Shown: positions 2,452 through 20,023 of the stretch, piece after piece
Numbering within the stretch: position 1 is the stretch's first letter
Layout of the letters: each line of letters starts with the position of its first letter
Assembly: GCF_016127575.1 (NCBI RefSeq)
Contig: NZ_CP066019.1
Coordinates: forward strand, 1,770,001-1,802,000
Direction: 5' to 3'
Source: Cupriavidus necator
Lineage (GTDB): Bacteria > Pseudomonadota > Gammaproteobacteria > Burkholderiales > Burkholderiaceae
DNA: 32,000 nucleotides
Program-made: the position numbers and the translations under genes
Notes under the pieces: model-generated
The model's input: the letters and a program-made list of their open reading frames with translations, nothing else
What the model was told of the DNA's origin: nothing
Database searches by the model: none

Positions 2452-2763
2452 ATGAACAAGTTCGTCGCGACCGCGATCGCACTCTGCCTTGGCGCCGCTT
2501 CGCTGGCCGTGCAGGCACAGACCGGCGGCAAGAAGCAGTTCGATCCGTATTCCCAGGGCGCCAAGTCGGGTGAGAAGTTTGACCCGTACAGCCAGGGGGC
2601 CAAGGCCGGCGACAAGTTCGACCCGTACAGCCAGGGCGCGAACAAGAGCACCCGCAGCGACCTGACCGACGCTTCCGCGCCGGCCGCCGAGCAAAAGCCG
2701 GCCAAGAAGTCCACCAAGAAGAAGAGCAAGAAGAAGGCCGCTTCGGCGCCGGCTGCCAGCTGA
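2452..2763 (+). CDS. small secreted tandem-repeat protein (3 x FDPYSQGAK-type 13-aa repeats plus a Lys-rich tail)
   Basis: ATG at 2452 with AGGAGA at 2442-2447. Signal peptide MNKFVATAIALCLGAASLAVQA. Three 39-nt in-frame repeats at 2539-2655 (FDPYSQGAKSGEK / FDPYSQGAKAGDK / FDPYSQGANKSTR), then KPAKKSTKKKSKKKA. The upstream part of ORF 2365..2763 has no RBS. Confidence 0.8.
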   Translation: MNKFVATAIALCLGAASLAVQAQTGGKKQFDPYSQGAKSGEKFDPYSQGAKAGDKFDPYSQGANKSTRSDLTDASAPAAEQKPAKKSTKKKSKKKAASAPAAS

Positions 2764-2831: not shown

Positions 2832-3725
2832 CTATGGCGCTTGCGTGTCGCGCTCCAGCGCGGTGACATCCACGCGCTGCACCTTGTCATCCTGGCGCAC
2901 TTCGGTGCGCAGCACGAAGGCGTCGGCGGGGCAATACCAGTCGGTGACATGCATCACGGTCGGCTCAACCTGTACCACTTCTTCGCCAACCAGGACCGGC
3001 CCCAGCGAGGTGCGTTTCTCGTAGGTGACCGGCAGGCATTCCTTGCGCCCCAGGACGGTATTGATCGTCTGCCGCTTGCCGACGTGGCGCGAGCCGATAT
3101 AGATCGACGCATGCTGCGCCCGCATGTTGCTGACCACTTCATCCGATCCCAGCGGGTAGACCTTCAGCGAGACGCTCGACTCAAAGGTCTCGCCCTCCAG
3201 CGTGGTGCCCTCGCGCAGGTCCAGCCCGGCGTAGTTGAACACGCCCATGCCGCGGAAAGCCGCCTCGCCGTACATGCGCGCGTAGCGCGCGCGGGCGTTG
3301 ATGACGGCATGCTGGCTTTCGATGCTGGTCTGGCCGCCGGGCGAACGGCGGTCGATCACCACTTCATGCACCTGGGTGGTAATCACCGGCGGCCCCATCA
3401 GCGCCGACAGGGCAGTCTTGGAATTGATCTCCAGTTGCGCGCGGCAGCCGGTCGGACTGCGCACCACATCGCGCAGGGTCATGCTGACCGACATTGGCAT
3501 CACGCCGTCGCCTTCCATCTGCACATGCGAGCCGGAGCGGAACCATGGGGCACTGCACAGCACGGCCGCCGCCGCTGCCTGCGCCTGGCTTGCCGCAGCC
3601 TGCGCCACCGCCGCACCGGCGCCCGGCAGCGCCGCCGCACCCTGGGCGCCGGCATGCTGCGCCAGCGCCATGGCCACGCCCGCCACCAGGCCTGCCAGCC
3701 GGTCCCGCTGTGCCTTTTTCTTCAC
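2832..3725 (-). CDS. secreted hypothetical protein
   Basis: 297-aa ORF. It has an N-terminal basic and hydrophobic signal (MKKKAQRDRLAGLVAGVAMALAQHAGA), an Ala/Gln-rich low-complexity linker, then a ~230-aa domain with 4 Cys. The opposite-strand ORF 2841..3761 is His/Arg/Gly-rich shadow. Confidence 0.7.
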   Translation of the reverse strand: MKKKAQRDRLAGLVAGVAMALAQHAGAQGAAALPGAGAAVAQAAASQAQAAAAAVLCSAPWFRSGSHVQMEGDGVMPMSVSMTLRDVVRSPTGCRAQLEINSKTALSALMGPPVITTQVHEVVIDRRSPGGQTSIESQHAVINARARYARMYGEAAFRGMGVFNYAGLDLREGTTLEGETFESSVSLKVYPLGSDEVVSNMRAQHASIYIGSRHVGKRQTINTVLGRKECLPVTYEKRTSLGPVLVGEEVVQVEPTVMHVTDWYCPADAFVLRTEVRQDDKVQRVDVTALERDTQAP

Positions 3726-4160
3726 ATGAATCCCCGTCTAGAGTTTCCAGGCGCCCCCTGACCCTGCGCCCGGCCTGCCAGGCGACCGCCTGGACACTGA
3801 AATTATCGCGTTTTGTTGCATGTGTAACTCGGATTTTTCGCGCAGATCCTGTGGCAGCCGGTGGCCGGCGGGCAGCGGGCAGCAGCCGGCCTGAGCAGCA
3901 CTTTCTCTCCCCCGCGGCAATCCGGCGCCCCGCAGGCCGTCTCCAGCACCCGCCGGGGGCGGCCTGCCCACCGTGCTACCATTGCCCGCCTCGCGTGTGC
4001 CGAGGCGGCAGCGGCGTGCGAGGCGCATGCCAGCGTGCCAGCCGCGGGCGACTTGCCTCCCTGGTGTCCACCAACAGGCAAGGCCATGCGTTGTGATGGC
4101 TTCCCGTCACCGCGCGCCCCACGCAGGACCATCGATCCGTCGCGCTTTTCCAGGAGATCT

Positions 4161-5900
4161 ATGCGTAGTTCATCGACCTCGCGGGCTGCCGCGCTGTCCG
4201 TTGGAGCCACCACCGCCAGTGCGGTCGCACTGGCCAGCCTGTTTATCCTGCTGGTCTGGTTCGGCACCCTCGACATGCGTCACCTGCTGCGCTCCGATGA
4301 AGGCCGCTACGCCGAGATTGCCCGCGAAATGTTCGCTACCGGCGACTGGGTCACGATCCGCTACCACGAACTCAAGTATTTCGAGAAGCCGCCCTTCCAC
4401 CTGTGGGTGACCACGCTGGCCTACACGCTGTTTGGCGTGGGCGACTGGCAGGCGCGGTTGTGCGTGGCCCTGTCCGGCATCCTGGGGCTGGGCGTGTCGA
4501 TGCTGGCCGCGGCACGCTGGTACGGCCGGCGCGTGGCGATGCTGACGGGGCTGGTGCTGGTTTCCGCGCCGATGTGGAATATCGCCGGCCACTTCAACTC
4601 GCTGGACATGACGCTGGCCGGCGCCATGGCGTGCGTGCTGGCCTTCATGCTGCTGGCGCAGCACCCGGATGCCACCCGCGCCGAACGCCGCAACTGGATG
4701 CTCGCCTGCTGGGCGGCGATGGGCGTGGCGGTGCTGGTCAAGGGGCTGGTCGGGCTGGCGCTGCCGGGGCTGGTGCTGGTGGTCTACACGCTGGTGACAC
4801 GCGACTTCCGCTTGTGGTGCCGCCTGCATCTGCCGGGCGGCATCGTCGCCATGCTGGTGGTGACGGTGCCGTGGTTCTGGCTGGTGTCGGAACGCAATCC
4901 GGAATTCCTGCATTTCTTCTTTATCCACGAGCACTGGCAACGCTATACCTCGAACGTGCACCAGCGCGAAGGCGCGATCTGGTTCTTCGTGCCGCTGCTG
5001 CTGGCCGGCTTCCTGCCCTGGCTGGGCCTGGTTCCGCAAATGTGGAAGGCCGTGCGCGAGCGCGCCGGCGTCGCTCGCGGCACCTCGCCGCGGCCATTCC
5101 AGCCCGCCCTGCTGGCGGCGCTGTGGGCCGTGGCGATCTTTGTCTTCTTCAGCCTGTCCGGCTCCAAGCTGCCCGGCTATATCGTGCCGATCTTCCCGGC
5201 GCTGGCGCTGCTGGCCGGCGTGGCGCTGGACACGTTGACGGAACGCGCGTGGCGCTGGCAGGTCAATGCCATGATTGCCCTGGGCGTGGTCGGGCTGCTG
5301 GCGTGCCCGTTTGTCGGCATGATGGACAAGCCCAGCACGCCCAATGTGGTCTATCGGGAATTCGCAGCGTGGACCGGCGTCGCCTTCGCGGTGATGCTGG
5401 GCGGCGCACTGCTGGCGCGCCGGCTGCTGCGCACGCGTGGGGTGTTTCCCAGTGTGGTGGCCTATGCGCTGGCGATGTTCATCTGCTCCACGGTGGCGCT
5501 GCGCGGTCACGAAGCCATGGGCCGGCCCAGTTCCGGCGCGGACCTGGTGCCCGCCATCAATGCCGTGCTGACGCCGGACATGCCGCTGTACAGTGTGGGC
5601 ATGCTCGACCACACGCTGCCGTTCTACCTGCGCCGCACCACCATCATGGTGGCGCATCCCGATGAGCTGGAATTCGGCATCGGCCAGGAACCGCAGAAGT
5701 GGATCCCGACCATCGATGGCTTTATCGCGCGCTGGCAGGACGGCAAGCGCGCGGTAGCGATCATGTTGCCCTCGACCTACGACGCACTGGCTGCGCGCGG
5801 CGTGCCGATGCACAGGATCGCCGGTGACCGCCGCCGTGTGGCGGTCGCCAATTTCGCGCTGCCGGGCAATGGCCCGCAGACGCAACCCCCAGGACAGTAA
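4161..5900 (+). CDS. arnT: 4-amino-4-deoxy-L-arabinose (L-Ara4N) lipid A transferase, GT39/GT83-type (ArnT)
   Basis: ATG at 4161 with AGGAGA at 4152-4157. 579 aa, polytopic. N-terminal ArnT/PMT signature (RSDEGRYAEIAREMFATGDWVTIRYHELKYFEKPPFHLW). It heads an arn gene set. The track ORF starts at 3861, but that extension is Arg/Pro/Ala-rich and lacks an RBS. Confidence 0.88.
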   Translation: MRSSSTSRAAALSVGATTASAVALASLFILLVWFGTLDMRHLLRSDEGRYAEIAREMFATGDWVTIRYHELKYFEKPPFHLWVTTLAYTLFGVGDWQARLCVALSGILGLGVSMLAAARWYGRRVAMLTGLVLVSAPMWNIAGHFNSLDMTLAGAMACVLAFMLLAQHPDATRAERRNWMLACWAAMGVAVLVKGLVGLALPGLVLVVYTLVTRDFRLWCRLHLPGGIVAMLVVTVPWFWLVSERNPEFLHFFFIHEHWQRYTSNVHQREGAIWFFVPLLLAGFLPWLGLVPQMWKAVRERAGVARGTSPRPFQPALLAALWAVAIFVFFSLSGSKLPGYIVPIFPALALLAGVALDTLTERAWRWQVNAMIALGVVGLLACPFVGMMDKPSTPNVVYREFAAWTGVAFAVMLGGALLARRLLRTRGVFPSVVAYALAMFICSTVALRGHEAMGRPSSGADLVPAINAVLTPDMPLYSVGMLDHTLPFYLRRTTIMVAHPDELEFGIGQEPQKWIPTIDGFIARWQDGKRAVAIMLPSTYDALAARGVPMHRIAGDRRRVAVANFALPGNGPQTQPPGQ

Positions 5901-11433: not shown

Positions 11434-13809
11434 CTAGCCGCGCCGCTCCGCCCCCACGCGCAGCCCGTTGAACACCACCAGCAGGCTCGCGCCCATATCG
11501 GCGAACACCGCCATCCACATCGTCCCCATCCCCAGCACCGTCAGCACCAGGAACACGGCCTTGATGCCGAGCGCCAGCGCGATGTTCTGCGTGAGGATGC
11601 CTGAGGTGCGGCGCGACAGGCGCACAAAGGCCGGGATCTTGCGCAGGTCATCGTCCATCAGCGCCACGTCGGCGGTCTCGATTGCGGTGTCGGTGCCGGC
11701 TGCGCCCATGGCGAAGCCGATATCGGCACGCGCCAGCGCCGGCGCGTCGTTGATGCCGTCGCCCACCATGCCGATGCGGCCGCCGCGCGCGTGGGCGGCG
11801 CCGGCAAGCGCCGCGATGCCGTCGGCCTTGTCCTGCGGCAACTGGTTGCCGCGCGCCTCATCGATGCCGACCTGCGCCGCAATGGCTTGCGCCGTGTGTG
11901 GATTGTCGCCCGACAGCATCAGCGTCCTGACGCCCAGTTCATGCAGTTCGGCAATCGCCTGCCGGCTGGTGTCGCGCACGGTATCCGCCACCGCGAACAG
12001 CGCCAGCGCCGTGGCGGCGCCGTGGCCGTCGACGCGCGCCAGCAGCACCACGGTCTTGCCCTCGCGCTCAAGCGCTTCGAGCCGCGCCTCCAGCGCCGGC
12101 GAGCAGGCGCCCATCTCATGCACCAGGCGATGGTTGCCCAGGCAGTACGCCACGCCCTGCACCTTGCCGCGCGTGCCGCGCCCCGCCAGCGCCTCGAAGT
12201 CGTCCACCGGCAGCGTGCCGATCCCGTCGGCCGCGGCCGCCGTGGCCACCGCGCGCGAAACCGGGTGGTCCGAGCGCGCCGCCAGGCTGGCGGCAATGGC
12301 GCGCGCCTGCGGCGCGTCCTCGGCCAGCAGCGCATGGTTGGTCTGCGCGGGCTTGCCGTGCGTGATCGTGCCGGTCTTGTCCAGCGCCACCCAGGCCAGG
12401 TGCCGGCCCTGCTCCAGGTACACCCCGCCCTTGACCAGGATGCCGCGGCGCGCGGCCGCGGCCAGCCCGCTGACGATGGTCACCGGCGTGGAGATTACCA
12501 GCGCGCAGGGGCAGGCGATCACCAGCAGCACCAGCGCCTTGTAGATCCAGTCGACCCAGGCGCCGCCCATGACCAGCGGCGGCACCACCGCAACCGCCAG
12601 CGCAAGCGCGAACACCGTGGGCGTGTAGATGCGCGCGAACTGGTCGACAAAGCGCTGCGTGGGCGCACGGCTGCCCTGCGCGGCCTCGACCGCGTGGATG
12701 ATGCGGGCCAGCGTGGAATCGCTGGCGGGCGCCGTCACGGTGTACTCCAGCTCGCCGGACTGGTTGATCGAGCCGGCGAACAGCGCATCGCCCTCGGTCT
12801 TGTCGACCGGCACGCTTTCGCCGGTGATGGGCGCCTGGTCCAGCGCCGACTGGCCGCGCACGACCTTGCCGTCGAGCGCGACGCGCTCGCCTGGCCGCAG
12901 CCGCACCAGCGCGCCCACGGCGACGCCGGCGGCAGGCACGGTCTCCCAGCTGCCATCGGCACGCTGCACCGTGGCCTGTTCCGGCGCCATCGCCATCAAG
13001 CCGCGGATCGCATTGCGCGCCCGGTCCAGCGAGGCTGCCTCGATGCGCTCGGCCAGCGCGAACAGCACCATCACCATGGCCGCTTCCGGCCACTGGCGCA
13101 ACAGCAGTGCGCCGGTGACGGCAATGCTCATCAGCGCATTGATGTTCAGGTTGCCATTGCGCAGCGCGATCCAGCCCTTGCGGTAGGTGGTCAGCCCGCC
13201 CAGCGCCACCGCCGCCAGCGCCAGCACGGCGGGCAGCCACGGCAAGCCCAGGCCCAGCCACTCCGCAGCTTCGGCACCCAAGGCGGCCACGCCGGCCAGC
13301 GCCAGCGGCCACCAGGGCTTGCTTGCCGTGGTTTGCGGCAAGACTTGCTGCGCGGCCTCGGTGCTCAGCGGCACCGGCTGCATGCCCAGGCTCTCGATCG
13401 CCCTGGCCACCGGCTCCGCCGACGGCAAGGTGTGATGCACCGTCAGCACCCGCTGGATCAGGTTGAACTCCAGCGCCGCCACGCCGGCCATGCCGCCCAG
13501 CTTGTTGCGGATCAGCGTTTCCTCGGTCGGGCAGTCCATCGCGTCGATGCGCCACGCAGCGGTCTGCGCGCCGGCGGGGATGTCGACCGGTGCGGCGGGC
13601 GTCAGCGCAACCGTGGACGAGCAGCCGCCGCCGCAGCAGGCGGAAGCCGCCGGTGCCTGCCGGGCCTCGGCATGGCCATGCCCATGATGGTCATGATCGT
13701 GGTCGTGGTGATGGTCGTGATCATGCCCGCCATGCCGGTGGGCGGCGCCATCATGCGCGTGGGCAGCGTGATCTTGAGGGAGTGCGTCCTCAGGTGACGT
13801 GCGAGCCAT
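11434..13809 (-). CDS. cadA: heavy-metal translocating P1B-type ATPase (Cd2+/Zn2+/Pb2+ exporter, CadA/ZntA type)
   Basis: 791 aa. Features are a His-rich N-terminus, a CCGGGC cluster, an HMA-like domain (DAMDCPTEE), the transmembrane CPC motif (IACPCALVISTP), the DKTGT phosphorylation site, the GDGINDAP hinge and an HP motif (SDHP). The gene symbol is a family-level guess. Confidence 0.95.
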   Translation of the reverse strand: MARTSPEDALPQDHAAHAHDGAAHRHGGHDHDHHHDHDHDHHGHGHAEARQAPAASACCGGGCSSTVALTPAAPVDIPAGAQTAAWRIDAMDCPTEETLIRNKLGGMAGVAALEFNLIQRVLTVHHTLPSAEPVARAIESLGMQPVPLSTEAAQQVLPQTTASKPWWPLALAGVAALGAEAAEWLGLGLPWLPAVLALAAVALGGLTTYRKGWIALRNGNLNINALMSIAVTGALLLRQWPEAAMVMVLFALAERIEAASLDRARNAIRGLMAMAPEQATVQRADGSWETVPAAGVAVGALVRLRPGERVALDGKVVRGQSALDQAPITGESVPVDKTEGDALFAGSINQSGELEYTVTAPASDSTLARIIHAVEAAQGSRAPTQRFVDQFARIYTPTVFALALAVAVVPPLVMGGAWVDWIYKALVLLVIACPCALVISTPVTIVSGLAAAARRGILVKGGVYLEQGRHLAWVALDKTGTITHGKPAQTNHALLAEDAPQARAIAASLAARSDHPVSRAVATAAAADGIGTLPVDDFEALAGRGTRGKVQGVAYCLGNHRLVHEMGACSPALEARLEALEREGKTVVLLARVDGHGAATALALFAVADTVRDTSRQAIAELHELGVRTLMLSGDNPHTAQAIAAQVGIDEARGNQLPQDKADGIAALAGAAHARGGRIGMVGDGINDAPALARADIGFAMGAAGTDTAIETADVALMDDDLRKIPAFVRLSRRTSGILTQNIALALGIKAVFLVLTVLGMGTMWMAVFADMGASLLVVFNGLRVGAERRG

Positions 13810-13913: not shown

Positions 13914-14324
13914 TCAGTGCTCGCAGTTGACCATCCAGGACATGCCGAAGCGGTCCACCAGCATGCCGAAGCCTTCGGCCCAGAAGGTCTTCTGGTACGG
14001 CACCACCACCTGGCCGTCTTCGCTCAGGCCGTCGAAGATGCGCTGGCCCTCGTCCTTGCTGACCGCCCCCACCGACAGGCTGAAGCCGCTGAACGCCGGG
14101 CGCTCCCCGCGCCGGCCGTCGGACGCCATCACCTGGTTCTCGCCGAACTGGATATTGGCGTGCATCACCTTGTCCTTCCAGTCATCGGGAACCTCCATGC
14201 CGGGGCTAGGCGGGGCATCCTTGTAGCGCATCGCGAACGTGACCTGCGCGCCCAGCACCTTGCCGTAGAAGGCCACGGCCTCATCGAAACGGCCGCCAAA
14301 ATCCAGATAGGGTTGCACCTGCAT
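13914..14324 (-). CDS. VOC (glyoxalase/bleomycin-resistance fold) family protein, PhnB/YjdN-like
   Basis: 136 aa: MQVQPYLDFGGRFDEAVAFYGKVLGAQV...FWAEGFGMLVDRFGMSWMVNCEH, the typical PhnB-like signature. Strong RBS AAGGAGA (rc of 14331-14337). Confidence 0.88.
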   Translation of the reverse strand: MQVQPYLDFGGRFDEAVAFYGKVLGAQVTFAMRYKDAPPSPGMEVPDDWKDKVMHANIQFGENQVMASDGRRGERPAFSGFSLSVGAVSKDEGQRIFDGLSEDGQVVVPYQKTFWAEGFGMLVDRFGMSWMVNCEH

Positions 14325-14426: not shown

Positions 14427-15884
14427 TCAGGAGACCGCGGCGGGGGCCGGCGCGGGCGGCGCGGCAGTGGCCAATGCCTCGGCGGGAAATTGCAGCGAGA
14501 ACATCGTTTCGCCTTCAACGCTGCGCACCGTCACGCTGCCGCCATGCAGCCGCATGATGGTGTCGACGATGGCCAGCCCCAGCCCGGTCGACGCCGCCGA
14601 GTTGCGGCGCGACGGATCGGCCCGGTAGAAGCGCCCGAAGATATGCGGCAAGGTCTCGGGCGGGATCGCCGGCCCGGCATTGGTCACGCGGAGGCAGGCC
14701 GTGCCGCTGACCGGGGCCGGGGCGCGCTCCACGTCGAGCCGCACCGTGCTGCCCGCCGGCGCATGGCGCAGCGCATTGTCGAGCAGGTTGGTGACCGCGC
14801 GGCGCAGCAGCGTCTGGTCGGCCTGCACCATTGCCGTACCGGTCACCGTCAGCGCGACCTCGCGGTCGGCGGCCACGGCATCGAAGTACTCGGCCATCTT
14901 GTCCAGTTCTTCGCGCGCGTCCAGCGTGCGGATGCCCAGCGCCACCTGCGCATGGTCGGCGCGCGCCAGGAACAGCATGTTCTCGATCATGCGCGCCAGG
15001 CGCTCGTACTCTTCCAGGTTGGATTCGAGCAGCGCCTCATACTCGGCCACGCCGCGGCTCTGCGCCAGCGTGACCTGGGTCTGGCCGATCAGGTTGCTGA
15101 TCGGCGTGCGGAAATCATGCGCCAGGTCCGCCGAGAACTCGGACAGCCGCGAGAAACTGTCCTGCAGCCGCGCCAGCATGTCGTTGAGGGCCGCCGCCAG
15201 CTCGCGCAGCTCGGCCGGCGCGCTGCCCACGTCAAGCCGCGTGGCAAGGCGACTGGTGGTGACCGCGGCGGCATCGGCGGCCATGCGCCGCAACGGCCGC
15301 AGCCCGCGCCGCGCCAGCACGAAGCCCAGGCCCGCCGCCACGGCAGCGCCGCACAGCGTGGCCCACAGCACCTGGTGGCGGTAGTCGCGGATCAGCGCCA
15401 CGCGGTAGCCGGCATCGCGCAGCACCACGATCTCCACGGCCTTGTCCGAATCCCCCAGCTGGCCCAACGCCGCAATGCCGCGCGAGGGCACGCCATTCTT
15501 GGGGTACCAGGTCTGCAACATGCTCTTCTCTGGCTGCGTGGTGGCGGGCAGCACGCGCAGCGGCGGCACCGATTCATTGCGCGGATTGAGCGTGACCAGC
15601 GGCTCGCCCTGGCGTGAGCGCACCACCAGGATCAGCCCCTCGTGGCCCATCGCAATATCGGCAAAACGGTGGGTATCGGCGCGTATCTCGGCCTCGCTGC
15701 GCACCTCGCGCAGCAGGTGGCGCACCAGCAGCACCTCGCCGACCAGCTCGCTTTCATCGCGCCCCTCCAGCTGCGCCGACAGCGCCCCGGACAGGTAGGC
15801 CGCCACGCTGGCGAGAATCACCGCCGTGGCCAGCCCGTACGCCAGCGCCAGCCGCGTGGTAAGCGAAGACGGCAGCCGCATCAT
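14427..15884 (-). CDS. heavy-metal sensor histidine kinase (CusS/CzcS/CopS family)
   Basis: 485 aa with two TM helices flanking a ~125-aa periplasmic domain. It has a HAMP domain, the H-box [17 protein letters not shown], an N-box (LLDNALRH) and G-boxes (GLGLAIV). Its start overlaps the response-regulator stop (ATGA at 15881-15884). Confidence 0.9.
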
Positions 15885-16570
15885 GCGTCCTGGTCCCGGT
15901 CCTCGCTGTCGTCCAGCACGTAGCCCATGCCGCGCCGCGTGTGGATCAGCTTATGCGGGAAGGGATCGTCGACCTTGGCGCGCAGGCGCCGGATCGAGAC
16001 ATCGACCACATTGGTATTGCTGTCGAAGTTGACGTCCCACACCTGCGAGGCGATCAGCGAGCGCGACAGCACCTCGCCGCGCCGGCGCGCGAGCAGGTAC
16101 AGCAGTGCGAACTCCTTGGAGGTCAGGTCGATCTTCTGGCCGGCGCGCACCACGCGGCGGCGGATGGCGTCGATCTGCAGGTCGGCCACTTCGATGAACT
16201 CGCTCTCGCGCAGCGGGCCGCGCCGCAGGATGGTGCGGATGCGCAGCACCAGCTCGGCAAAGGCAAAGGGCTTGACCATATAGTCGTCGGCGCCGAGCTC
16301 CAGCCCCTTGAGGCGGTCGGACAGCTCGTCGCGCGCGGTCAGGAACAGCACCGGGGTATCGCGCTCGCGGCGCAGCTCGCGCAGCACCTGCCAGCCATCC
16401 AGGCCGGGCAGCATCACGTCCAGCACGATCAGGTCATAGGGATGCTCGCGCGCATGGGCCAGGCCATCCGCGCCGTCGCGCGCCAGGTCCACCACGAAGC
16501 CGGATTCGGTCAGGCCCTTGTGCAGGTAGTCGCCCGCCTTGGGTTCGTCCTCGACAATCAGGATACGCAT
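15881..16570 (-). CDS. heavy-metal response regulator, OmpR/PhoB type (CusR/CopR/CzcR family)
   Basis: 229 aa from the ATG at 16568-16570 ([29 protein letters not shown]...). It aligns closely along its length with E. coli CusR as I recall it, including [16 protein letters not shown] and LTSKEFALL...[27 protein letters not shown]. The 36-aa track extension upstream has no support. Confidence 0.92.
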
Positions 16571-16646
16571 GATTCGATCACTTTCCGGGCGGCACCAGCG
16601 CCGCCATGGCGTAACGCTAGCCGAGGATGAGCGCCAATGGGCAAAG

Positions 16647-16662
16647 ATTTCACAAATGTCAT
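16647..16662. promoter_or_regulatory. weak CusR-box-like site in the intergenic region between the response regulator and the secreted-protein gene
   Basis: ATTTCACAAATGTCAT shares 11/16 positions with the better site at 17816-17831, including the entire right half AATGTCAT. The left half is degenerate. Confidence 0.3.
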
Positions 16663-16769
16663 CGCCATGCCAGGGCAATGCAGGCGAAAACCCCGGTAAA
16701 ATGCGCGATCATCACCGGCGTCGTGCCGGTTTGCGCCACCCTTTCCCCCATTCTGCCCGCCCCCCGCCG

Positions 16770-17213
16770 ATGAAACGCCTGCCGAATTGCCTGCTGCTGT
16801 CCCTCGCCATGCTTGCGCTGCCCGTCTCCGGCGCTGCAGCGGCAACGGCCACGGTATGCAGCGCGGTACAGGCAGCCGGGCTGTCGCTGCCGGAACGGCA
16901 TGCGGCCGCAAAAATGGAGGCGGAAGCGGCACTGGACGGCACCGGCCCGGGCACCTGCCGCGGCAGCGCGGTCCAGGTGATGGCCGAGCCTTCCGGCAGC
17001 GGCCATCCGCTGCAGCTGCACGATGCCGATGCGCCGCAGGCGACCGACCACGGCGCCACGCCGCTGGAGACGCAGCCATCGGCCGCGTCCGGCGTGCTGC
17101 GCGAACTGCCTGCGGAGGTGCTGGTGCATTGGGCGCACGCGGCGCCAATGGCCACGCCGGCGGTGTTCACCGGCACCCAGCCGCTGGAACGCCTGCTGCC
17201 CGCACGCTGCTGA
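16770..17213 (+). CDS. secreted hypothetical protein, divergent from the metal two-component system
   Basis: 147 aa from the ATG at 16770. Signal peptide MKRLPNCLLLSLAMLALPVSGAAAA. Third-codon positions are strongly GC-rich. The mature part contains 3 Cys and several His/Asp (HPLQLHDADAPQATDH). No family recognised, and there is no obvious SD sequence. Confidence 0.6.
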   Translation: MKRLPNCLLLSLAMLALPVSGAAAATATVCSAVQAAGLSLPERHAAAKMEAEAALDGTGPGTCRGSAVQVMAEPSGSGHPLQLHDADAPQATDHGATPLETQPSAASGVLRELPAEVLVHWAHAAPMATPAVFTGTQPLERLLPARC

Positions 17214-17326
17214 GCGCGTCGTAGCGGGCACAGCGCCCGCATCGCTTCCCTTCCGTTTTGCGGAATACCCCTGGCGCCGGCAAGGCGCGGCGGATTGTCC
17301 CGCCTGCGCGTCTTAGCCTGCGCGTT

Positions 17327-17647
17327 TTATTCGACGCGGAAGAATTCGATCGACTGCCCGGCGTTCACGGCCCGCTGCAGCCAGTCCGGATACTCGCCCT
17401 GCCCGTCCCAGCTCTGGCCGAGCGCATTGCGGTATAGCGGGCGCGCAGCGGCAGCCTTGGGGGCGGCCTGCGGGATAAGCTGGGCCACGGCTGGCGGGGC
17501 GTCAGGCGCCGGCTCAGGCCCGGCGTCGATGGCAACATGATCAAAGCACCCGGCGGCGACAAGATCGTCGAACGTCAGGGCATGACGGTCCATTTGCTCG
17601 CGGATCCACGCCACCGCAGCGAGTTTGGCTGAATCAGACTCGGACAT
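17327..17647 (-). CDS. H-NS-like nucleoid-associated DNA-binding protein (Burkholderiales H-NS/Bv3F type)
   Basis: 106 aa. It has an N-terminal helical oligomerisation segment, a Pro/Ala linker and a C-terminal H-NS DNA-binding signature: YRNALGQSWDGQGEYPDWLQRAVNAGQSIEFFRV. Confidence 0.85.
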   Translation of the reverse strand: MSESDSAKLAAVAWIREQMDRHALTFDDLVAAGCFDHVAIDAGPEPAPDAPPAVAQLIPQAAPKAAAARPLYRNALGQSWDGQGEYPDWLQRAVNAGQSIEFFRVE

Positions 17648-17815
17648 GACTCTCGTGAGAGGCCCGCTGCATTTCCGCGGGCAATGAAAAACCGGCGATG
17701 GAACCGCAGGCCGGTCGGATAGCCGTGATTCTACAGCCTTTGCCCGGCGCTGCTGCGTTTCCGTCGTGGGCGCGCGGCCAATTGCCGTGCGCTTGCCGCG
17801 CTCGTCCGCTGCCGA

Positions 17816-17831
17816 GTGACAGCAATGTCAT
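17816..17831 (+). promoter_or_regulatory. CusR/CopR-box-like dyad upstream of the small repeat-protein gene
   Basis: GTGACAGCAATGTCAT has the TGACA-N4-TGTCA core, with the same spacing as the E. coli CusR box ATGACAANNTTGTCAT. A TAGACT -10-like hexamer at 17865-17870 would put the dyad centre near -54. Confidence 0.45.
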
Positions 17832-17920
17832 GTGCCGGTCATGCTCGTGTGGGCACGCGCTGCCTAGACTTGCTTCACCGCCGCCCATTTCGGGCCGGCA
17901 CCCTTACGGAGAAGCGACTC

Positions 17921-18154
17921 ATGCAAGCACTCAGGCAAGTCTTTGTGGCCACCGCCCTTATTGCTGCCGTGGTCGGCACTGCGCAGGCTGCACCGCGCAG
18001 TGCCGATCCGTTCAGCGACGGGGCGCACAGCGCCACCGGCACCCGCAGCGCGTTCACGGACGGTGCGAACGCCGCAACGGGCCCGCGCAGCACCTTTACC
18101 GACGGCGCGCATAACCCCAACGGCCCGCGCGACAGCTTCAGCGACGGCGCGTGA
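17921..18154 (+). CDS. small secreted tandem-repeat protein (3.5 x 14-aa xxF(S/T)DGA(H/N)xxxGxR repeats)
   Basis: 77 aa from the ATG at 17921, with GGAGAA 7 nt upstream. Signal peptide MQALRQVFVATALIAAVVGTAQA. The mature 54 aa consist almost entirely of repeats: DPFSDGAHSATGTR / SAFTDGANAATGPR / STFTDGAHNPNGPR / DSFSDGA. Confidence 0.75.
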   Translation: MQALRQVFVATALIAAVVGTAQAAPRSADPFSDGAHSATGTRSAFTDGANAATGPRSTFTDGAHNPNGPRDSFSDGA

Positions 18155-18176
18155 CGGTAGCCGGCCGGGCAGCGCC

Positions 18177-19058
18177 TCAGCGCACCTCGCCGTAGATGCG
18201 GCGCGCATCGGCGGCGTCGGCAATCGGCCGGCCCAGCGTCAGGCCGCCTTGCACCGCCTGCGCCACCAGCGCATGGTTGCCGGCTGCGCGGCTGCCGTCG
18301 CGCAGCAGCAGGTTGTTCTCGAATCCCACCCGCACATGGCCGCCAAATGCGGCGGCCGCGGTCACGCAGGCATTCTCTTCGCGGCCGAAGGCGCAGATCG
18401 CCCACGGCAACGCGTCGCCGGACTCGCCCGCGGCCTGCAGGAACGGCAGCAGGTCGTGCGGCGACGACACCTGCCCGGCGGCATAGCGCCCCAGCACGTA
18501 CAGCACCGACCATGCGCCCGGCGGCACCATGCCGCGCTCGCGCATCGACTGCCAGCGCCGCACATCGGCCACGTCATACAGGATCACCTGCGTCATCACG
18601 CGCTCACGCGCCAGCCAGGCGAAGAACGCCGCCAGTTCGCTGTCCGGGATGTCTGGCACGGCGACTTCGCGCAGGCCCACCGAAACGGCTTCGGGCCGCA
18701 GCTCACGCACCATCGCCATCTGCTCCGCGGCCTGGTAGACGCCCGCGGCCTCGCTCGTCACCTGCACCAGCAACGCTTCGCCCACGGCCTGCTTCACCGC
18801 GGCCAGCGCGTCGCGGTAGGCCTGCACGTCGAGCGAGTGGCGGCCTTCGGCATCGCGCACATGCATGTGCATCATGGCCGCGCCGGCATCCAGGCAGGCG
18901 CGCGCTTCAGCGGCCAGTGCGGCGGCGGTCAGCGGCACCGCCGGATGGTCGCTGGCGCGCTTGTAGGCGCCGTTGGGCGCCACGGTGACGATCAGCGGCG
19001 CATCGGCCAGCGGCACGCGGGCCGCGGCTACGGGGGCTTGGGAAGGGGTCCGGGTCAT
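18177..19058 (-). CDS. beta-keto acid cleavage enzyme (BKACE, 3-keto-5-aminohexanoate cleavage enzyme family, DUF849)
   Basis: 293 aa with family blocks IVTVAPNGA, HMHVRD, and FGGHVRVGFENNL near the C-terminus. Its start overlaps the stop of the upstream dehydrogenase gene (ATGA at 19055-19058). Confidence 0.88.
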   Translation of the reverse strand: MTRTPSQAPVAAARVPLADAPLIVTVAPNGAYKRASDHPAVPLTAAALAAEARACLDAGAAMMHMHVRDAEGRHSLDVQAYRDALAAVKQAVGEALLVQVTSEAAGVYQAAEQMAMVRELRPEAVSVGLREVAVPDIPDSELAAFFAWLARERVMTQVILYDVADVRRWQSMRERGMVPPGAWSVLYVLGRYAAGQVSSPHDLLPFLQAAGESGDALPWAICAFGREENACVTAAAAFGGHVRVGFENNLLLRDGSRAAGNHALVAQAVQGGLTLGRPIADAADARRIYGEVR

Positions 19059-20023
19059 GGCTCGATCTCGGGCAGTTCAGGCGCGATCAGCGCCAGGCCG
19101 GCGCGCAGCAGGCTGTCATAGCGTGCGCGCTCGGCGGCAATGGTTTCGGGGGTCCACTGGTAGAAGCCTTCGCCGCGCTTCATGCCGTGGCGGCCGTCGG
19201 CGGCGCGCTCGGACAGGCAGCGCGCCGGATGGTCGTCGTTGCAGAAGGTCGGGTACATGGTGGCGCCGGCGGCCGCGTGCACGTCGATGCCCGCGTGGTC
19301 ACGCTGCAGCACCGGCCCGGCCGCCAGGAAGCGAAAGCCAAAGCCGAAGCGCACCGCCGCATCGACATCCTCGGGCGAGGCAATGCCGCGGTCGATCAGG
19401 CTGAATGCCTCGCGCGACAGCGCATGCTGCAGCCGGTTGGCAAGAAAGCCCGGCAGGTCCTTGCGCACCTTGACCGGCACCATCGCGCAGCGGCGCATGA
19501 AGGCGATCAGCGCGTCGGCACAGGCCTCGTCGCTGTCATCGCCCATCACCACTTCCACCAGCGGCACCAGGTGCGCCGGCATGAAGAAGTGCAGGCCGAG
19601 CATGCGCACACGCGAGTCGAGTCCCGCGCCGATGGCGCTGATCGGGAAGCTGGAGCTGTTGCTGGCCAGCACCGTATCGGGCCGCGCGCGCCGCACCAGC
19701 TCGGCAAAGAGCGCCTGCTTCAGGTCCAGCTGTTCCGGGATGCACTCGATCACCAGGTCCACGGTGGACCAGTCCACCGCATCCAGCGTCGCGGCCACCG
19801 CCAGGCGCTCCGCGCCTTGTTCACGGCCGATCGCGGCCAGGTTGCCGCGCACGCGCCCGGGCATGGCGCCGGCGCGGCCGGCATCGGGCTCGACCACGGT
19901 GGTGCGGCACAGCGCGCGGGTCAGCACCACGGCAACATCGGCGCCCATGGTGCCGCCGCCCACCACCACCGCATGCGCGGCGCCGGGGCGGCTCAGGATG
20001 ACCGGTGCGGTCGGGTTCGGCAT
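19055..20023 (-). CDS. NAD-dependent 3-hydroxyacyl-CoA dehydrogenase family protein (possibly an L-carnitine-dehydrogenase-like beta-hydroxy acid dehydrogenase)
   Basis: 322 aa from the ATG at 20021-20023, with GGGAGAA upstream. Rossmann motif VVVGGGTMGADVA. 3HCDH N- and C-terminal domain blocks are present (ECIPEQLDLKQALF, SNSSSFPIS, HFFMPAHLVPLVEV, FLANRLQHAL). The track extension to 20158 falls in low-GC intergenic DNA. Confidence 0.88.
   Translation of the reverse strand: MPNPTAPVILSRPGAAHAVVVGGGTMGADVAVVLTRALCRTTVVEPDAGRAGAMPGRVRGNLAAIGREQGAERLAVAATLDAVDWSTVDLVIECIPEQLDLKQALFAELVRRARPDTVLASNSSSFPISAIGAGLDSRVRMLGLHFFMPAHLVPLVEVVMGDDSDEACADALIAFMRRCAMVPVKVRKDLPGFLANRLQHALSREAFSLIDRGIASPEDVDAAVRFGFGFRFLAAGPVLQRDHAGIDVHAAAGATMYPTFCNDDHPARCLSERAADGRHGMKRGEGFYQWTPETIAAERARYDSLLRAGLALIAPELPEIEP

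What the first reader, a model, noticed from the sequence alone, without database searches (positions are those of the whole stretch)
17921..18154. Second secreted repeat peptide (xxF(S/T)DGA(H/N)xxxGxR x3.5), paralogous in motif to the 2452 gene and adjacent to the metal two-component system
The mature 54-aa product is nearly pure repeat: DPFSDGAHSATGTR, SAFTDGANAATGPR, STFTDGAHNPNGPR, DSFSDGA. The period is 14 aa, against 13 aa in the other gene, but both share the core aromatic-(S/T)-(D/Q)-G-A followed by His, Asn or Lys.
The window therefore holds two divergent members of one motif family. This one sits ~1.3 kb from a CusRS/CzcRS-type system and directly behind a CusR-box-like dyad. The regularly spaced Asp/His/Asn side chains could be low-affinity metal or cell-wall ligands, but that is speculation.
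Basis: partly seen in the sequence, partly recalled or inferred. Interest (0 to 1): 0.65.

Follow-up and report, generated by a model that had tools for sequence, protein, structure and literature searches.

The report
Known metal-stress peptide MmmQ/PrsQ2 ortholog
The small secreted repeat peptide is a real gene, but it is the ortholog of an already described Cupriavidus metal-stress peptide (MmmQ / PrsQ2 / CzcJ2 of the CopQ family), and it sits in its usual place behind the regulator binding site that was mapped experimentally in a sister species.

Summary
Window 17921-18154 (+) encodes a 77-aa protein: a 23-aa signal peptide and a 54-aa mature part built from four R-x-x-F-(S/T)-D-G-A motifs spaced exactly 14 aa apart.

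The gene is real. At least 15 Cupriavidus genomes carry it in the same frame, as 63, 77, 89 or 91 aa, all ending in DGA-stop. Median dN/dS is 0.27. A near-identical relative differs by a clean 42-nt indel.

It is not new. It lies in the cluster zntA - ubiG-like - czcS2 - czcR2 - czcL - hns - peptide. That cluster is published for C. metallidurans CH34 (mmmQ, Rmet_4461) and for symbiotic Cupriavidus (czcJ2). The published PprsQ2 promoter fragment and EMSA primers from strain NA4 match the region upstream of CH34 mmmQ.

The extra half-site and a -10-like element are conserved too.

Both motif genes belong to signal-peptide repeat families of Cupriavidus/Ralstonia. The kinship with the 2452 gene is only partly supported: it rests on intermediates and a weak profile match. 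The biochemical role of CopQ-family peptides is still unknown. His is not conserved in the repeat, whereas Phe, Asp and Gly are nearly invariant.

The parts
17921..18154 (+). CDS of the 77-aa CopQ-family peptide, ortholog of MmmQ/PrsQ2/CzcJ2 (stop codon included)
   Evidence: ORF. Orthologs of 63/77/89/91 aa. dN/dS about 0.27 and highest GC3 in this frame. 44.6% identity over the full length to pMOL30 CopQ.
17921..17989 (+). Signal peptide, 23 aa (MQALRQVFVATALIAAVVGTAQA); cleavage after AQA is inferred
   Evidence: Read from the sequence. AF2 helix at residues 3-18. The AQA|AP junction is conserved in the orthologs.
17990..18151 (+). Mature 54-aa peptide with four R-x-x-F-(S/T)-D-G-A motifs at a 14-aa period, ending in DGA
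   Evidence: motif positions 7, 21, 35 and 49 of the mature part. (no predicted structure; pLDDT 44-54 by 10-residue block).
18009..18151 (+). DNA tandem repeat, period 42 nt, 3.4 copies
   Evidence: A 42-nt in-frame indel separates the window from Cupriavidus sp. UYMSc13B.
17816..17831 (+). 16-bp inverted repeat GTGACAGCAATGTCAT, an AgrR/CzcR/CopR-type response-regulator box (consensus ATKACANNNNTGTMAT)
   Evidence: The TGAC and TGTCAT bases of the box are identical in all 16 orthologous promoters aligned. It aligns with the prsQ2 box whose C and G were mutated in PMC7380067.
17838..17843 (+). [quoted passage not shown]
   Evidence: Invariant. Its GT>CA mutation reduced AgrR-dependent activation of PprsQ2.
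17865..17870 (+). -10-like element TAGACT; the start of transcription is inferred near 17878
   Evidence: CTAGACT in 15 of 16 promoters, CTAAACT in CH34. The position fits the published -65 to -35 footprint. No full sigma-70 consensus was found, as expected for an activator-dependent promoter.
17908..17911 (+). Shine-Dalgarno GGAG, 9 nt before the ATG
   Evidence: ACGGAG is present in 14 of the 16 promoters aligned; CH34 and L018 differ.
17327..17647 (-). H-NS-like gene (hns), divergent from the peptide gene
   Evidence: Pfam Histone_HNS. It is syntenic in 20 of the 41 related loci fetched.
16770..17213 (+). czcL ortholog, an exported protein of unknown function
   Evidence: 39% identity to CH34 CzcL, E = 3e-12. 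No Pfam family.
16646..16661 (+). Second box, ATTTCACAAATGTCAT, in the czcR2-czcL intergenic region
   Evidence: Conserved in 8 species together with a downstream TAAAAT. The CH34/NA4 equivalent region binds AgrR in EMSA.
15881..16570 (-). OmpR-family response regulator, CzcR2 ortholog
   Evidence: Pfam Response_reg and Trans_reg_C. 92% identity to CH34 CzcR2.
14427..15884 (-). Sensor histidine kinase, CzcS2 ortholog
   Evidence: Pfam CusS sensor, HAMP, HisKA and HATPase_c. 76% identity to CH34 CzcS2.
13914..14324 (-). 'ubiG'-like gene of the cluster (3-dmu-9_3-mt / glyoxalase fold)
   Evidence: The same gene is present in CH34.
11434..13809 (-). Heavy-metal P-type ATPase (zntA-type) with a His-rich N-terminus
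2452..2763 (+). The other repeat gene: signal peptide, three FDPYSQGA(K/N) units at a 13-aa period, and a Lys-rich tail. It belongs to a separate conserved family with a related motif.

Best explanation
The gene is the ortholog of C. metallidurans mmmQ (CH34, Rmet_4461), which is prsQ2 in strain NA4 and is called czcJ2 in symbiotic Cupriavidus. It is a member of the CopQ family of small metal-stress-induced proteins with signal sequences.

Proposed mechanism:
- Under metal stress, an OmpR-family metal response regulator binds the conserved 6-4-6 inverted repeat at 17816-17831 and the extra half-site at 17838-17843. The likely regulators are AgrR, as shown in NA4, and probably the adjacent CzcR2, whose own promoter region carries the same type of box.
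- The regulator recruits RNA polymerase to a promoter that has a -10-like TAGACT and no good -35.
- The 77-aa precursor is exported by Sec and cleaved after AQA.
- The 54-aa mature peptide, which has no predicted structure, accumulates in the periplasm. There it contributes to tolerance of Ag+ and other metals.

Shown here: the gene is real and under purifying selection, the orthology and synteny hold, and the operator and promoter elements are conserved.

Shown elsewhere, for the ortholog: 507-fold AgrR-dependent induction, direct AgrR binding (Kd 1.6 uM), dependence on the box bases, and loss of silver resistance on deletion.

Inferred: the export and cleavage site, control by CzcR2, and the biochemical action. 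My best guess for that action is weak, multivalent cation buffering or envelope shielding by the invariant Asp carboxylates, held in a fixed F-x-D-G-A turn.
For: Synteny: zntA, ubiG-like, czcS2, czcR2, czcL, hns and the peptide gene lie in the window in the same order as in CH34. The HK-RR-hns-peptide core of that order recurs in 17 of the related loci, and the order is as published (PMC2864759; PMC7060636).

Identity with prsQ2: the prsQ2 EMSA primers hit L001 at 5693-5712 and 5880-5899, just upstream of CH34 mmmQ. The PprsQ2 gBlock sequence equals the CH34 hns-mmmQ intergenic region.

Family membership: tblastn gives 44.6% identity over 100% of the query to pMOL30 CopQ, with all 36 matching records in Cupriavidus or Ralstonia. 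A profile search finds 547 proteins; every organism named among the 120 listed is Cupriavidus, and many are annotated CopQ. [quoted passage not shown]

Coding: 17 loci hold an intact ORF in this frame; 15 (L003-L017) are 69-86% identical, and L018 at 46% is still syntenic. Indels are in frame. Median dN/dS is 0.27 over 54 pairs. The repeat phase is fixed.

Regulation: the box, the half-site and the -10-like element are conserved across 16 promoters, while the surrounding intergenic DNA has diverged. Published EMSA, footprint and mutagenesis data apply to the orthologous site.
Against: No expression or protein data exist for this organism. CopQ itself was not detected in a CH34 proteome (PMC11647595), although small secreted peptides are easily missed.

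The window box has G rather than A at its first position, which is one mismatch to the consensus.

Which regulator acts here is unknown. In CH34, CzcR2 and AgrR were reported not to be involved in czc regulation, and the target promoters of CzcR2 are not established (PMC10127602).

Direct metal binding is unproven. The peptide has no Cys or Met, and its His is not conserved, which argues against specific Ag+/Cu+ coordination.

The low-confidence AF2 model rests on only 7 sequences, so the lack of predicted structure is only suggestive of disorder.
Confidence: 0.9

Rival explanations
1. The peptide is a periplasmic regulatory partner of the sensor kinases CzcS2, AgrS or CzcS rather than a metal buffer. 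It would be a feedback modulator in the manner of small accessory proteins of two-component systems.
For: The gene is tightly and stably linked to czcS2R2 in most species. It belongs to the same regulon as czcS2, czcR2 and czcL in NA4S (supplementary table). The soft-metal ligands that direct Ag+ binding would need are absent, and His is not conserved. Cross-talk among CzcRS, CzcR2S2 and AgrRS is documented.
Against: CH34 alone has 21 copQ homologues, several of them not linked to any regulator. In C. necator A5-1 the gene and its box persist without the neighbouring hns and czcRS. No binding data exist.
Confidence: 0.15
2. The ORF is a by-product of a 42-nt DNA tandem repeat in G+C-rich DNA and is not translated.
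For: Long spurious ORFs overlap the region on both strands. There is no Pfam or NCBIfam model. The exact protein, and those of 8 orthologs, are absent from a collection of about 15 billion proteins, so gene callers usually skip it.
Against: dN/dS is about 0.27 and GC3 is highest in this frame. All length changes are in frame, and every ortholog ends in DGA-stop. The signal peptide, Shine-Dalgarno site and ATG are conserved. Deleting the ortholog prsQ2 has a phenotype in C. metallidurans.
Confidence: 0.02
3. The peptide is a precursor that is cut into short DP(F/Y)TDGA-type signalling or modified peptides (RiPP-like or pheromone-like).
For: The repeat units are near-identical and preceded by Arg, which could serve as protease sites. 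Copy number varies from 3 to 5.
Against: There is no maturation enzyme, protease or exporter next to the gene in the window or in the syntenic loci. The neighbours are BKACE, 3-hydroxyacyl-CoA dehydrogenase and hns.
Confidence: 0.03

Closest known systems
MmmQ (Rmet_4461) of C. metallidurans CH34, which is PrsQ2 (v1_pm0620) of strain NA4 and CzcJ2 of C. neocaledonicus STM6070 and other symbiotic Cupriavidus
   Same: The genomic position is the same: after czcS2, czcR2, czcL and hns. The promoter architecture is the same, with the box, the half-site and TAGACT. The mature N-terminus APRSADPF(S/T)DGA and the C-terminal RDxF(S/T)DGA-stop are shared. Both have a signal peptide and F/Y-(S/T)-D-G repeats.
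   Different: Identity to the CH34 protein is only 51-53%. The CH34 protein has irregular spacers, whereas this clade has a strict 14-aa period. CH34 carries an IS element between czcL and hns. The window allele has 4 motifs, against 3 in its closest relatives and 5 in most species.
CopQ (Rmet_6121) of the pMOL30 cop cluster, prototype of the CopQ-like family (CzcJ, MmrQ, MmtQ, MmsQ, PrsQ1)
   Same: The size is the same (78 vs 77 aa). Both have a signal peptide, four R-D-x-(F/Y)-(S/T)-D-G-(A/G) motifs followed by H, and a C-terminal SDGA. Identity is 44.6% over the full length. The family is restricted to Cupriavidus and Ralstonia.
   Different: CopQ has an 11-13-aa period and sits in the plasmid cop cluster next to copL and copH, not behind czcRS-hns.
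The 2452-2763 product family (FDPYSQGAK repeats), named 'amino acid ABC transporter permease' in NCBI records
   Same: Both have a signal peptide and a tandem aromatic-(S/T)-x-G-A motif. Most named members are from Cupriavidus or Ralstonia, with a few records from other genera. Both show repeat-number variation.
   Different: It has Gln instead of the invariant Asp, a 13-aa period and a Lys-rich C-terminal tail. No regulator box was identified, and it lies next to an amino-acid-binding protein gene. Similarity to the MmmQ group is detectable only through intermediates.
E. coli CusR / Cupriavidus CopR-CzcR-AgrR operators
   Same: A 6-4-6 inverted repeat of the ATKACA-N4-TGTMAT type lies upstream of a weak promoter. 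My recollection of the E. coli CusR box, AAAATGACAANNTTGTCATTTT, is not a tool result.
   Different: Which paralogous regulator uses this site in this organism has not been determined.

Membership tests
CopQ-like small metal-stress proteins (Janssen et al. 2010, PMC2864759) | N-terminal signal sequence | tested here: met
   A positively charged N-terminus, a hydrophobic core and AQA|A are read from the sequence. AF2 models a helix at residues 3-18. No dedicated signal-peptide predictor was available.
CopQ-like small metal-stress proteins (Janssen et al. 2010, PMC2864759) | Common motif RDXXTDG repeated 3 to 4 times, joined by spacers of defined length | tested here: met
   There are four motifs: RSADPFSDG, RSAFTDG, RSTFTDG and RDSFSDG. 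They are spaced 14 aa apart, with S/T and D/S/N variation at two positions.
CopQ-like small metal-stress proteins (Janssen et al. 2010, PMC2864759) | Detectable sequence similarity to the prototype CopQ | tested here: met
   tblastn gives 44.6% identity over 100% of the query, E = 2e-7, to pMOL30 180358-180591, which is the gene between copH and copL.
CopQ-like small metal-stress proteins (Janssen et al. 2010, PMC2864759) | Restricted to Cupriavidus and Ralstonia | tested here: met
   Among plasmid and chromid records, 23 are Cupriavidus and 13 Ralstonia, with no others. Of 39 genome loci, 38 are Cupriavidus and one is a record titled Ralstonia pickettii. Every organism named among the 120 listed profile hits is Cupriavidus.
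CopQ-like small metal-stress proteins (Janssen et al. 2010, PMC2864759) | Transcription induced by heavy metals | not testable with these tools
   The only support is indirect: the activator box is conserved, and published data exist for the ortholog.
MmmQ / PrsQ2 / CzcJ2 orthologous group | Position in the cluster zntA - ubiG - czcS2 - czcR2 - czcL - hns - gene | tested here: met
   CH34 is. The HK-RR-hns-peptide core recurs in 17 of the related loci.
MmmQ / PrsQ2 / CzcJ2 orthologous group | Promoter with the AgrR box, the proximal half-site and a -10 element | tested here: met
   The alignment of 16 promoters is. The positions mutated in PprsQ2 (C and G of the box, GT of the half-site) are present in the window.
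MmmQ / PrsQ2 / CzcJ2 orthologous group | Needed for the enhanced silver resistance of agrS mutants | not testable with these tools
   This has been reported only for C. metallidurans NA4S.
One family with the 2452-2763 product | Significant sequence or profile similarity beyond the signal peptide | tested here: inconclusive
   Neither single-sequence search listed a protein that the other did. hhalign on the mature parts gives 47% probability, P = 2e-4, over 36 columns. Intermediates P0006, P0005, P0082 and P0088 bridge the two sets.

The most novel reading that the evidence does not exclude
The strictly periodic MmmQ alleles and the FDPYSQGAK proteins (the 2452 type, now mislabelled as ABC transporter permeases) may be two branches of one wider superfamily of secreted '(F/Y)-(S/T)-(D/Q)-G-A' repeat peptides of Burkholderiales. 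In that superfamily, repeat number would change quickly by 39/42-nt slippage and would tune periplasmic capacity. One branch would be metal-induced and the other would have no evident link to a metal regulator. The superfamily would reach slightly beyond Cupriavidus and Ralstonia: the 2452-type search returned records named Paracidovorax, Janthinobacterium and Serratia.
Probability: 0.4. Interest if true: 0.35.

Novelty: already known. Interest (0 to 1): 0.2.

Why it matters
There is little to discover here. The gene, its family, its locus and its operator are all in the literature for sister species.

The practical value lies in annotation. The exact proteins of the window ORF and of 8 orthologs from other Cupriavidus genomes are absent from a collection of about 15 billion proteins. 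This suggests automated pipelines routinely miss this metal-stress gene in the species carrying the close orthologs (C. necator, C. oxalaticus, C. neocaledonicus and relatives).

The alignment of natural alleles with 3, 4 and 5 motifs shows which residues are constrained. Phe, Asp and Gly are nearly invariant and Ala is largely conserved, whereas His is not. This narrows the hypotheses about how CopQ-family peptides act, which remains an open question.

Tried and rejected
- Pfam and NCBIfam scans of both peptides gave nothing usable. The best match was rodlin at E = 0.11.
- The PDB sequence search gave no hit at E <= 10.
- Rfam on 16500-18500 gave only chance-level matches.
- The sigma-70 consensus scan found no promoter in 17300-18500. 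This fits an activator-dependent promoter and is not evidence against transcription.
- The AF2 model showed only the signal helix, with mean pLDDT 51.7. I did not run a fold search on it because the model is too poor.
- The first attempt to scan genomes with the 9-sequence alignment failed for lack of a conserved stretch. It worked with 4 close sequences.
- The Mijnendonckx 2019 Metallomics paper, the first description of PrsQ1 and PrsQ2, is not held in the library.
- My first Pfam scan of czcL used the wrong frame. I repeated it in the right frame.
- Rejected: a spurious ORF, a RiPP-like precursor, and His-based metal coordination as the conserved feature.

Full report
**1. What is in the sequence**

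Window 17921-18154 (+) is an ATG-initiated ORF of 77 codons. It reads MQALRQVFVATALIAAVVGTAQA | APRSADPFSDGAHSATGTRSAFTDGANAATGPRSTFTDGAHNPNGPRDSFSDGA.
- A GGAG lies 9 nt before the ATG.
- The N-terminus looks like a Sec signal peptide with an AQA|A cleavage site. This is inferred from the sequence; AF2 models residues 3-18 as a helix and nothing else.
- Tandem Repeats Finder reports a 42-nt repeat with 3.4 copies at 18009-18151. It also reports the 39-nt repeat of the other gene at 2537-2639.
- In a six-frame scan, only these two genes hold clusters of the motif.

**2. Is it a real gene?**

Yes.
- A scan of one genome per species found 39 related loci: 38 in Cupriavidus and one in a record titled Ralstonia pickettii.
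- Seventeen of the loci hold an intact ORF in this frame, and 15 of these (L003-L017) are 69-86% identical to the window protein. The lengths of those 15 are 63, 77, 89 or 91 aa, and all end in DGA-stop. The more distant syntenic ortholog L018 (46%, 90 aa) ends in SGN.
- Length differences are whole repeat units. Against Cupriavidus sp. UYMSc13B, whose flanking DNA is nearly identical, the window has one extra 42-nt unit inserted cleanly in frame.
- Nei-Gojobori dN/dS is 0.23 for the window against C. necator A5-1. The median is 0.27 over 54 pairs of 91-aa alleles. GC3 is highest in this frame.
- Across 83 repeat units, F is present in 82, D in 83, G in 83 and A in 77. The motifs are exactly 14 aa apart in 17 of 18 proteins.
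- The residue after D-G-A is H in 44, R in 11 and N in 10 units, so His is not a conserved ligand.

**3. What it is**

The neighbours are as follows:

| Window coordinates | Strand | Gene |
|---|---|---|
| 11434-13809 | - | ZntA-type P-type ATPase |
| 13914-14324 | - | 'ubiG'-like gene |
| 14427-15884 | - | CusS/CzcS-type kinase |
| 15881-16570 | - | OmpR-type regulator |
| 16770-17213 | + | exported protein, 39% identical to CH34 CzcL |
| 17327-17647 | - | H-NS-like gene |

This is the published cluster. It is written 'czcSRL | hns mmmQ' for C. metallidurans CH34 chromosome 2 (PMC2864759). It is written 'czcJ2 hns czcLRS ubiG zntA' for C. neocaledonicus STM6070 and other symbiotic strains, where the last gene is described as 'a small stress responsive protein' (PMC7060636).

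I read the CH34 locus directly (L001). It shows czcS2, czcR2, czcL, an IS transposase, hns, and then an 88-aa ORF: MRTIKQ...ANAAPRSADPFTDGARV...GKRDVFTDGA. That ORF shares the mature N-terminus and the C-terminus with the window protein. [quoted passage not shown]

The HK-RR-hns-peptide core of this order recurs in 17 of the related loci, and the full order appears in an annotated close relative.

The window protein also matches the family prototype, pMOL30 CopQ. Identity is 44.6% over its whole length, and CopQ has the same four-motif layout and the same SDGA end.

The family definition in the CH34 genome paper is a signal sequence plus RDXXTDG repeated 3-4 times with spacers of defined length, restricted to Cupriavidus and Ralstonia. 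All of these features are met here.

**4. The promoter**

I aligned the hns-peptide intergenic region of 16 species. Most of it is diverged, but one block is conserved in nearly every base: (A/G)TGAC(A/G)(G/T)CA(A/T)TGTCATG - 5 nt - GTCATG - about 20 nt - CTAGACT. The ribosome-binding site follows.

In the window these elements are:
- the box at 17816-17831;
- the half-site at 17838-17843;
- TAGACT at 17865-17870.

[quoted passage not shown] It lies upstream of promoters with a fair -10 and a poor -35.

The supplementary table of that paper gives the PprsQ2 fragment and the EMSA primers.
- Both primers match CH34 just upstream of mmmQ, at L001 5693-5712 and 5880-5899.
- The fragment is the CH34 hns-mmmQ intergenic region.
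- So prsQ2 of strain NA4 is mmmQ, and the window gene is its ortholog.

The bases whose mutation abolished or reduced AgrR-dependent activation are the C and G of the box and the GT of the half-site. All are present in the window.

For prsQ2 the paper reports:
- 507-fold up-regulation in the agrS mutant NA4S;
- direct AgrR binding with Kd 1.6 uM;
- a footprint from -65 to -35;
- loss of silver resistance when the gene is deleted.

A second box, weaker on its left half (ATTTCACAAATGTCAT, 16646-16661), sits in the czcR2-czcL intergenic region. It is conserved together with a TAAAAT element. The equivalent NA4 region also binds AgrR, more weakly. In NA4S, czcS2, czcR2, czcL and prsQ2 all rise together.

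**5. How it most likely works**

- Shown for the ortholog and inferred here: a metal-responsive OmpR-family regulator activates the gene from the box. AgrR is one such regulator. The adjacent CzcR2 is plausible because it is a close paralog and its own promoter region carries the same type of box.
- Inferred: the precursor is exported and cleaved after AQA. The 54-aa product has no predicted structure, with pLDDT of 44-54 by 10-residue block on a shallow alignment.
- Unknown: what the peptide does. It has no Cys or Met, and its His is not conserved. This makes specific Ag+/Cu+ coordination unlikely.
- The nearly invariant F, D and G (and largely conserved A) suggest a fixed local turn that presents an Asp carboxylate. 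I favour weak multivalent cation buffering or envelope shielding.
- A role as a periplasmic partner of the sensor kinases is the main rival.

**6. The second gene (2452-2763)**

It has 93 homologues, nearly all named ones from Cupriavidus or Ralstonia, with 2 to 4 or more FDPYSQGA(K/N) units. Many are wrongly named 'amino acid ABC transporter permease'.
- Neither single-sequence search listed a protein that the other did.
- hhalign on the mature parts gives 47% probability, P = 2e-4.
- Intermediates exist. P0006 and P0005 were found with the MmmQ query, and P0005 is annotated CopQ. P0006 is 66% identical to P0088 and 49% identical to P0082, both found with the 2452 query.

A shared origin is plausible but not demonstrated, so the claim of one motif family is partly supported.

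**7. Verdict**

The regulatory inference is right. The family link to the 2452 gene is partly supported, and the ligand idea is not supported for His.

The feature is already known as MmmQ/PrsQ2/CzcJ2 of the CopQ family, so interest is low. Two side results are worth keeping:
- The exact proteins of the window ORF and of 8 orthologs are absent from a collection of about 15 billion proteins, so the gene is usually not called in this clade.
- Repeat number changes between near-identical genomes.

Noticed in passing
window 17921-18154; L003, L004, L007, L009, L011, L013, L014 and L016 at 3501-3776: The exact proteins of the window ORF and of 8 orthologs are absent from the collection of about 15 billion proteins, although the ORFs are intact in those genomes. 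The CH34 ortholog is present there. The gene seems to be routinely missed by automated annotation in the species carrying the close orthologs (C. necator, C. oxalaticus, C. neocaledonicus and relatives).
   Followed up: partly
window 2452-2763: A 103-aa secreted repeat protein with three FDPYSQGAK units and a Lys-rich tail. It belongs to a conserved, mainly Cupriavidus/Ralstonia family that NCBI and UniRef records name 'amino acid ABC transporter permease'. The name looks like an error carried over from the neighbouring solute-binding protein gene at 1325-2263. Repeat number varies among homologues from 2 to 4 or more.
   Followed up: partly
window 16646-16661 and 16698-16703: A second regulator box, ATTTCACAAATGTCAT, and a TAAAAT element lie in the czcR2-czcL intergenic region. 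Both are conserved in 8 species. The left half-site is degenerate, which fits the weaker AgrR binding reported for this region in C. metallidurans.
   Followed up: partly
window 18059-18100 against L043 and L006: A clean 42-nt (one repeat unit) in-frame indel separates the window allele (4 motifs) from Cupriavidus sp. UYMSc13B and UYPR2.512 (3 motifs). The flanking DNA is nearly identical. Most other species have 5 motifs.
   Followed up: yes
L003 (C. necator A5-1), upstream of 3501: The peptide gene, its box and the downstream BKACE and dehydrogenase genes are present. However, hns, czcR2 and czcS2 are not found within 3.5 kb upstream. The conserved block therefore travels with the gene rather than with the two-component system.
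   Followed up: no
L017 (Cupriavidus sp. amp6), about 3290-3360: The hns-peptide intergenic region carries an expansion of a short repeat of the CTTGCCCTGCG type, just upstream of the box. The other species lack it.
   Followed up: no
L001 4128-5360 (CH34): An IS transposase gene sits between czcL and hns in CH34, as the literature states (IS1088). The window and the other species lack it.
   Followed up: yes
window 13650-13809 (- strand; N-terminus of the ATPase): The ZntA-type ATPase begins with a long His-rich stretch (HAAHAHDGAAHRHGGHDHDHHHDHDHDHHGHGH) ahead of its metal-binding domain.
   Followed up: no
window 17875-18513 (-) and 17943-19121 (+): Long ORFs of 212 and 392 aa overlap the peptide gene and the BKACE gene in other frames. 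They look like the usual artefacts of G+C-rich DNA, and they may be one reason why gene callers skip the short true ORF.
   Followed up: no
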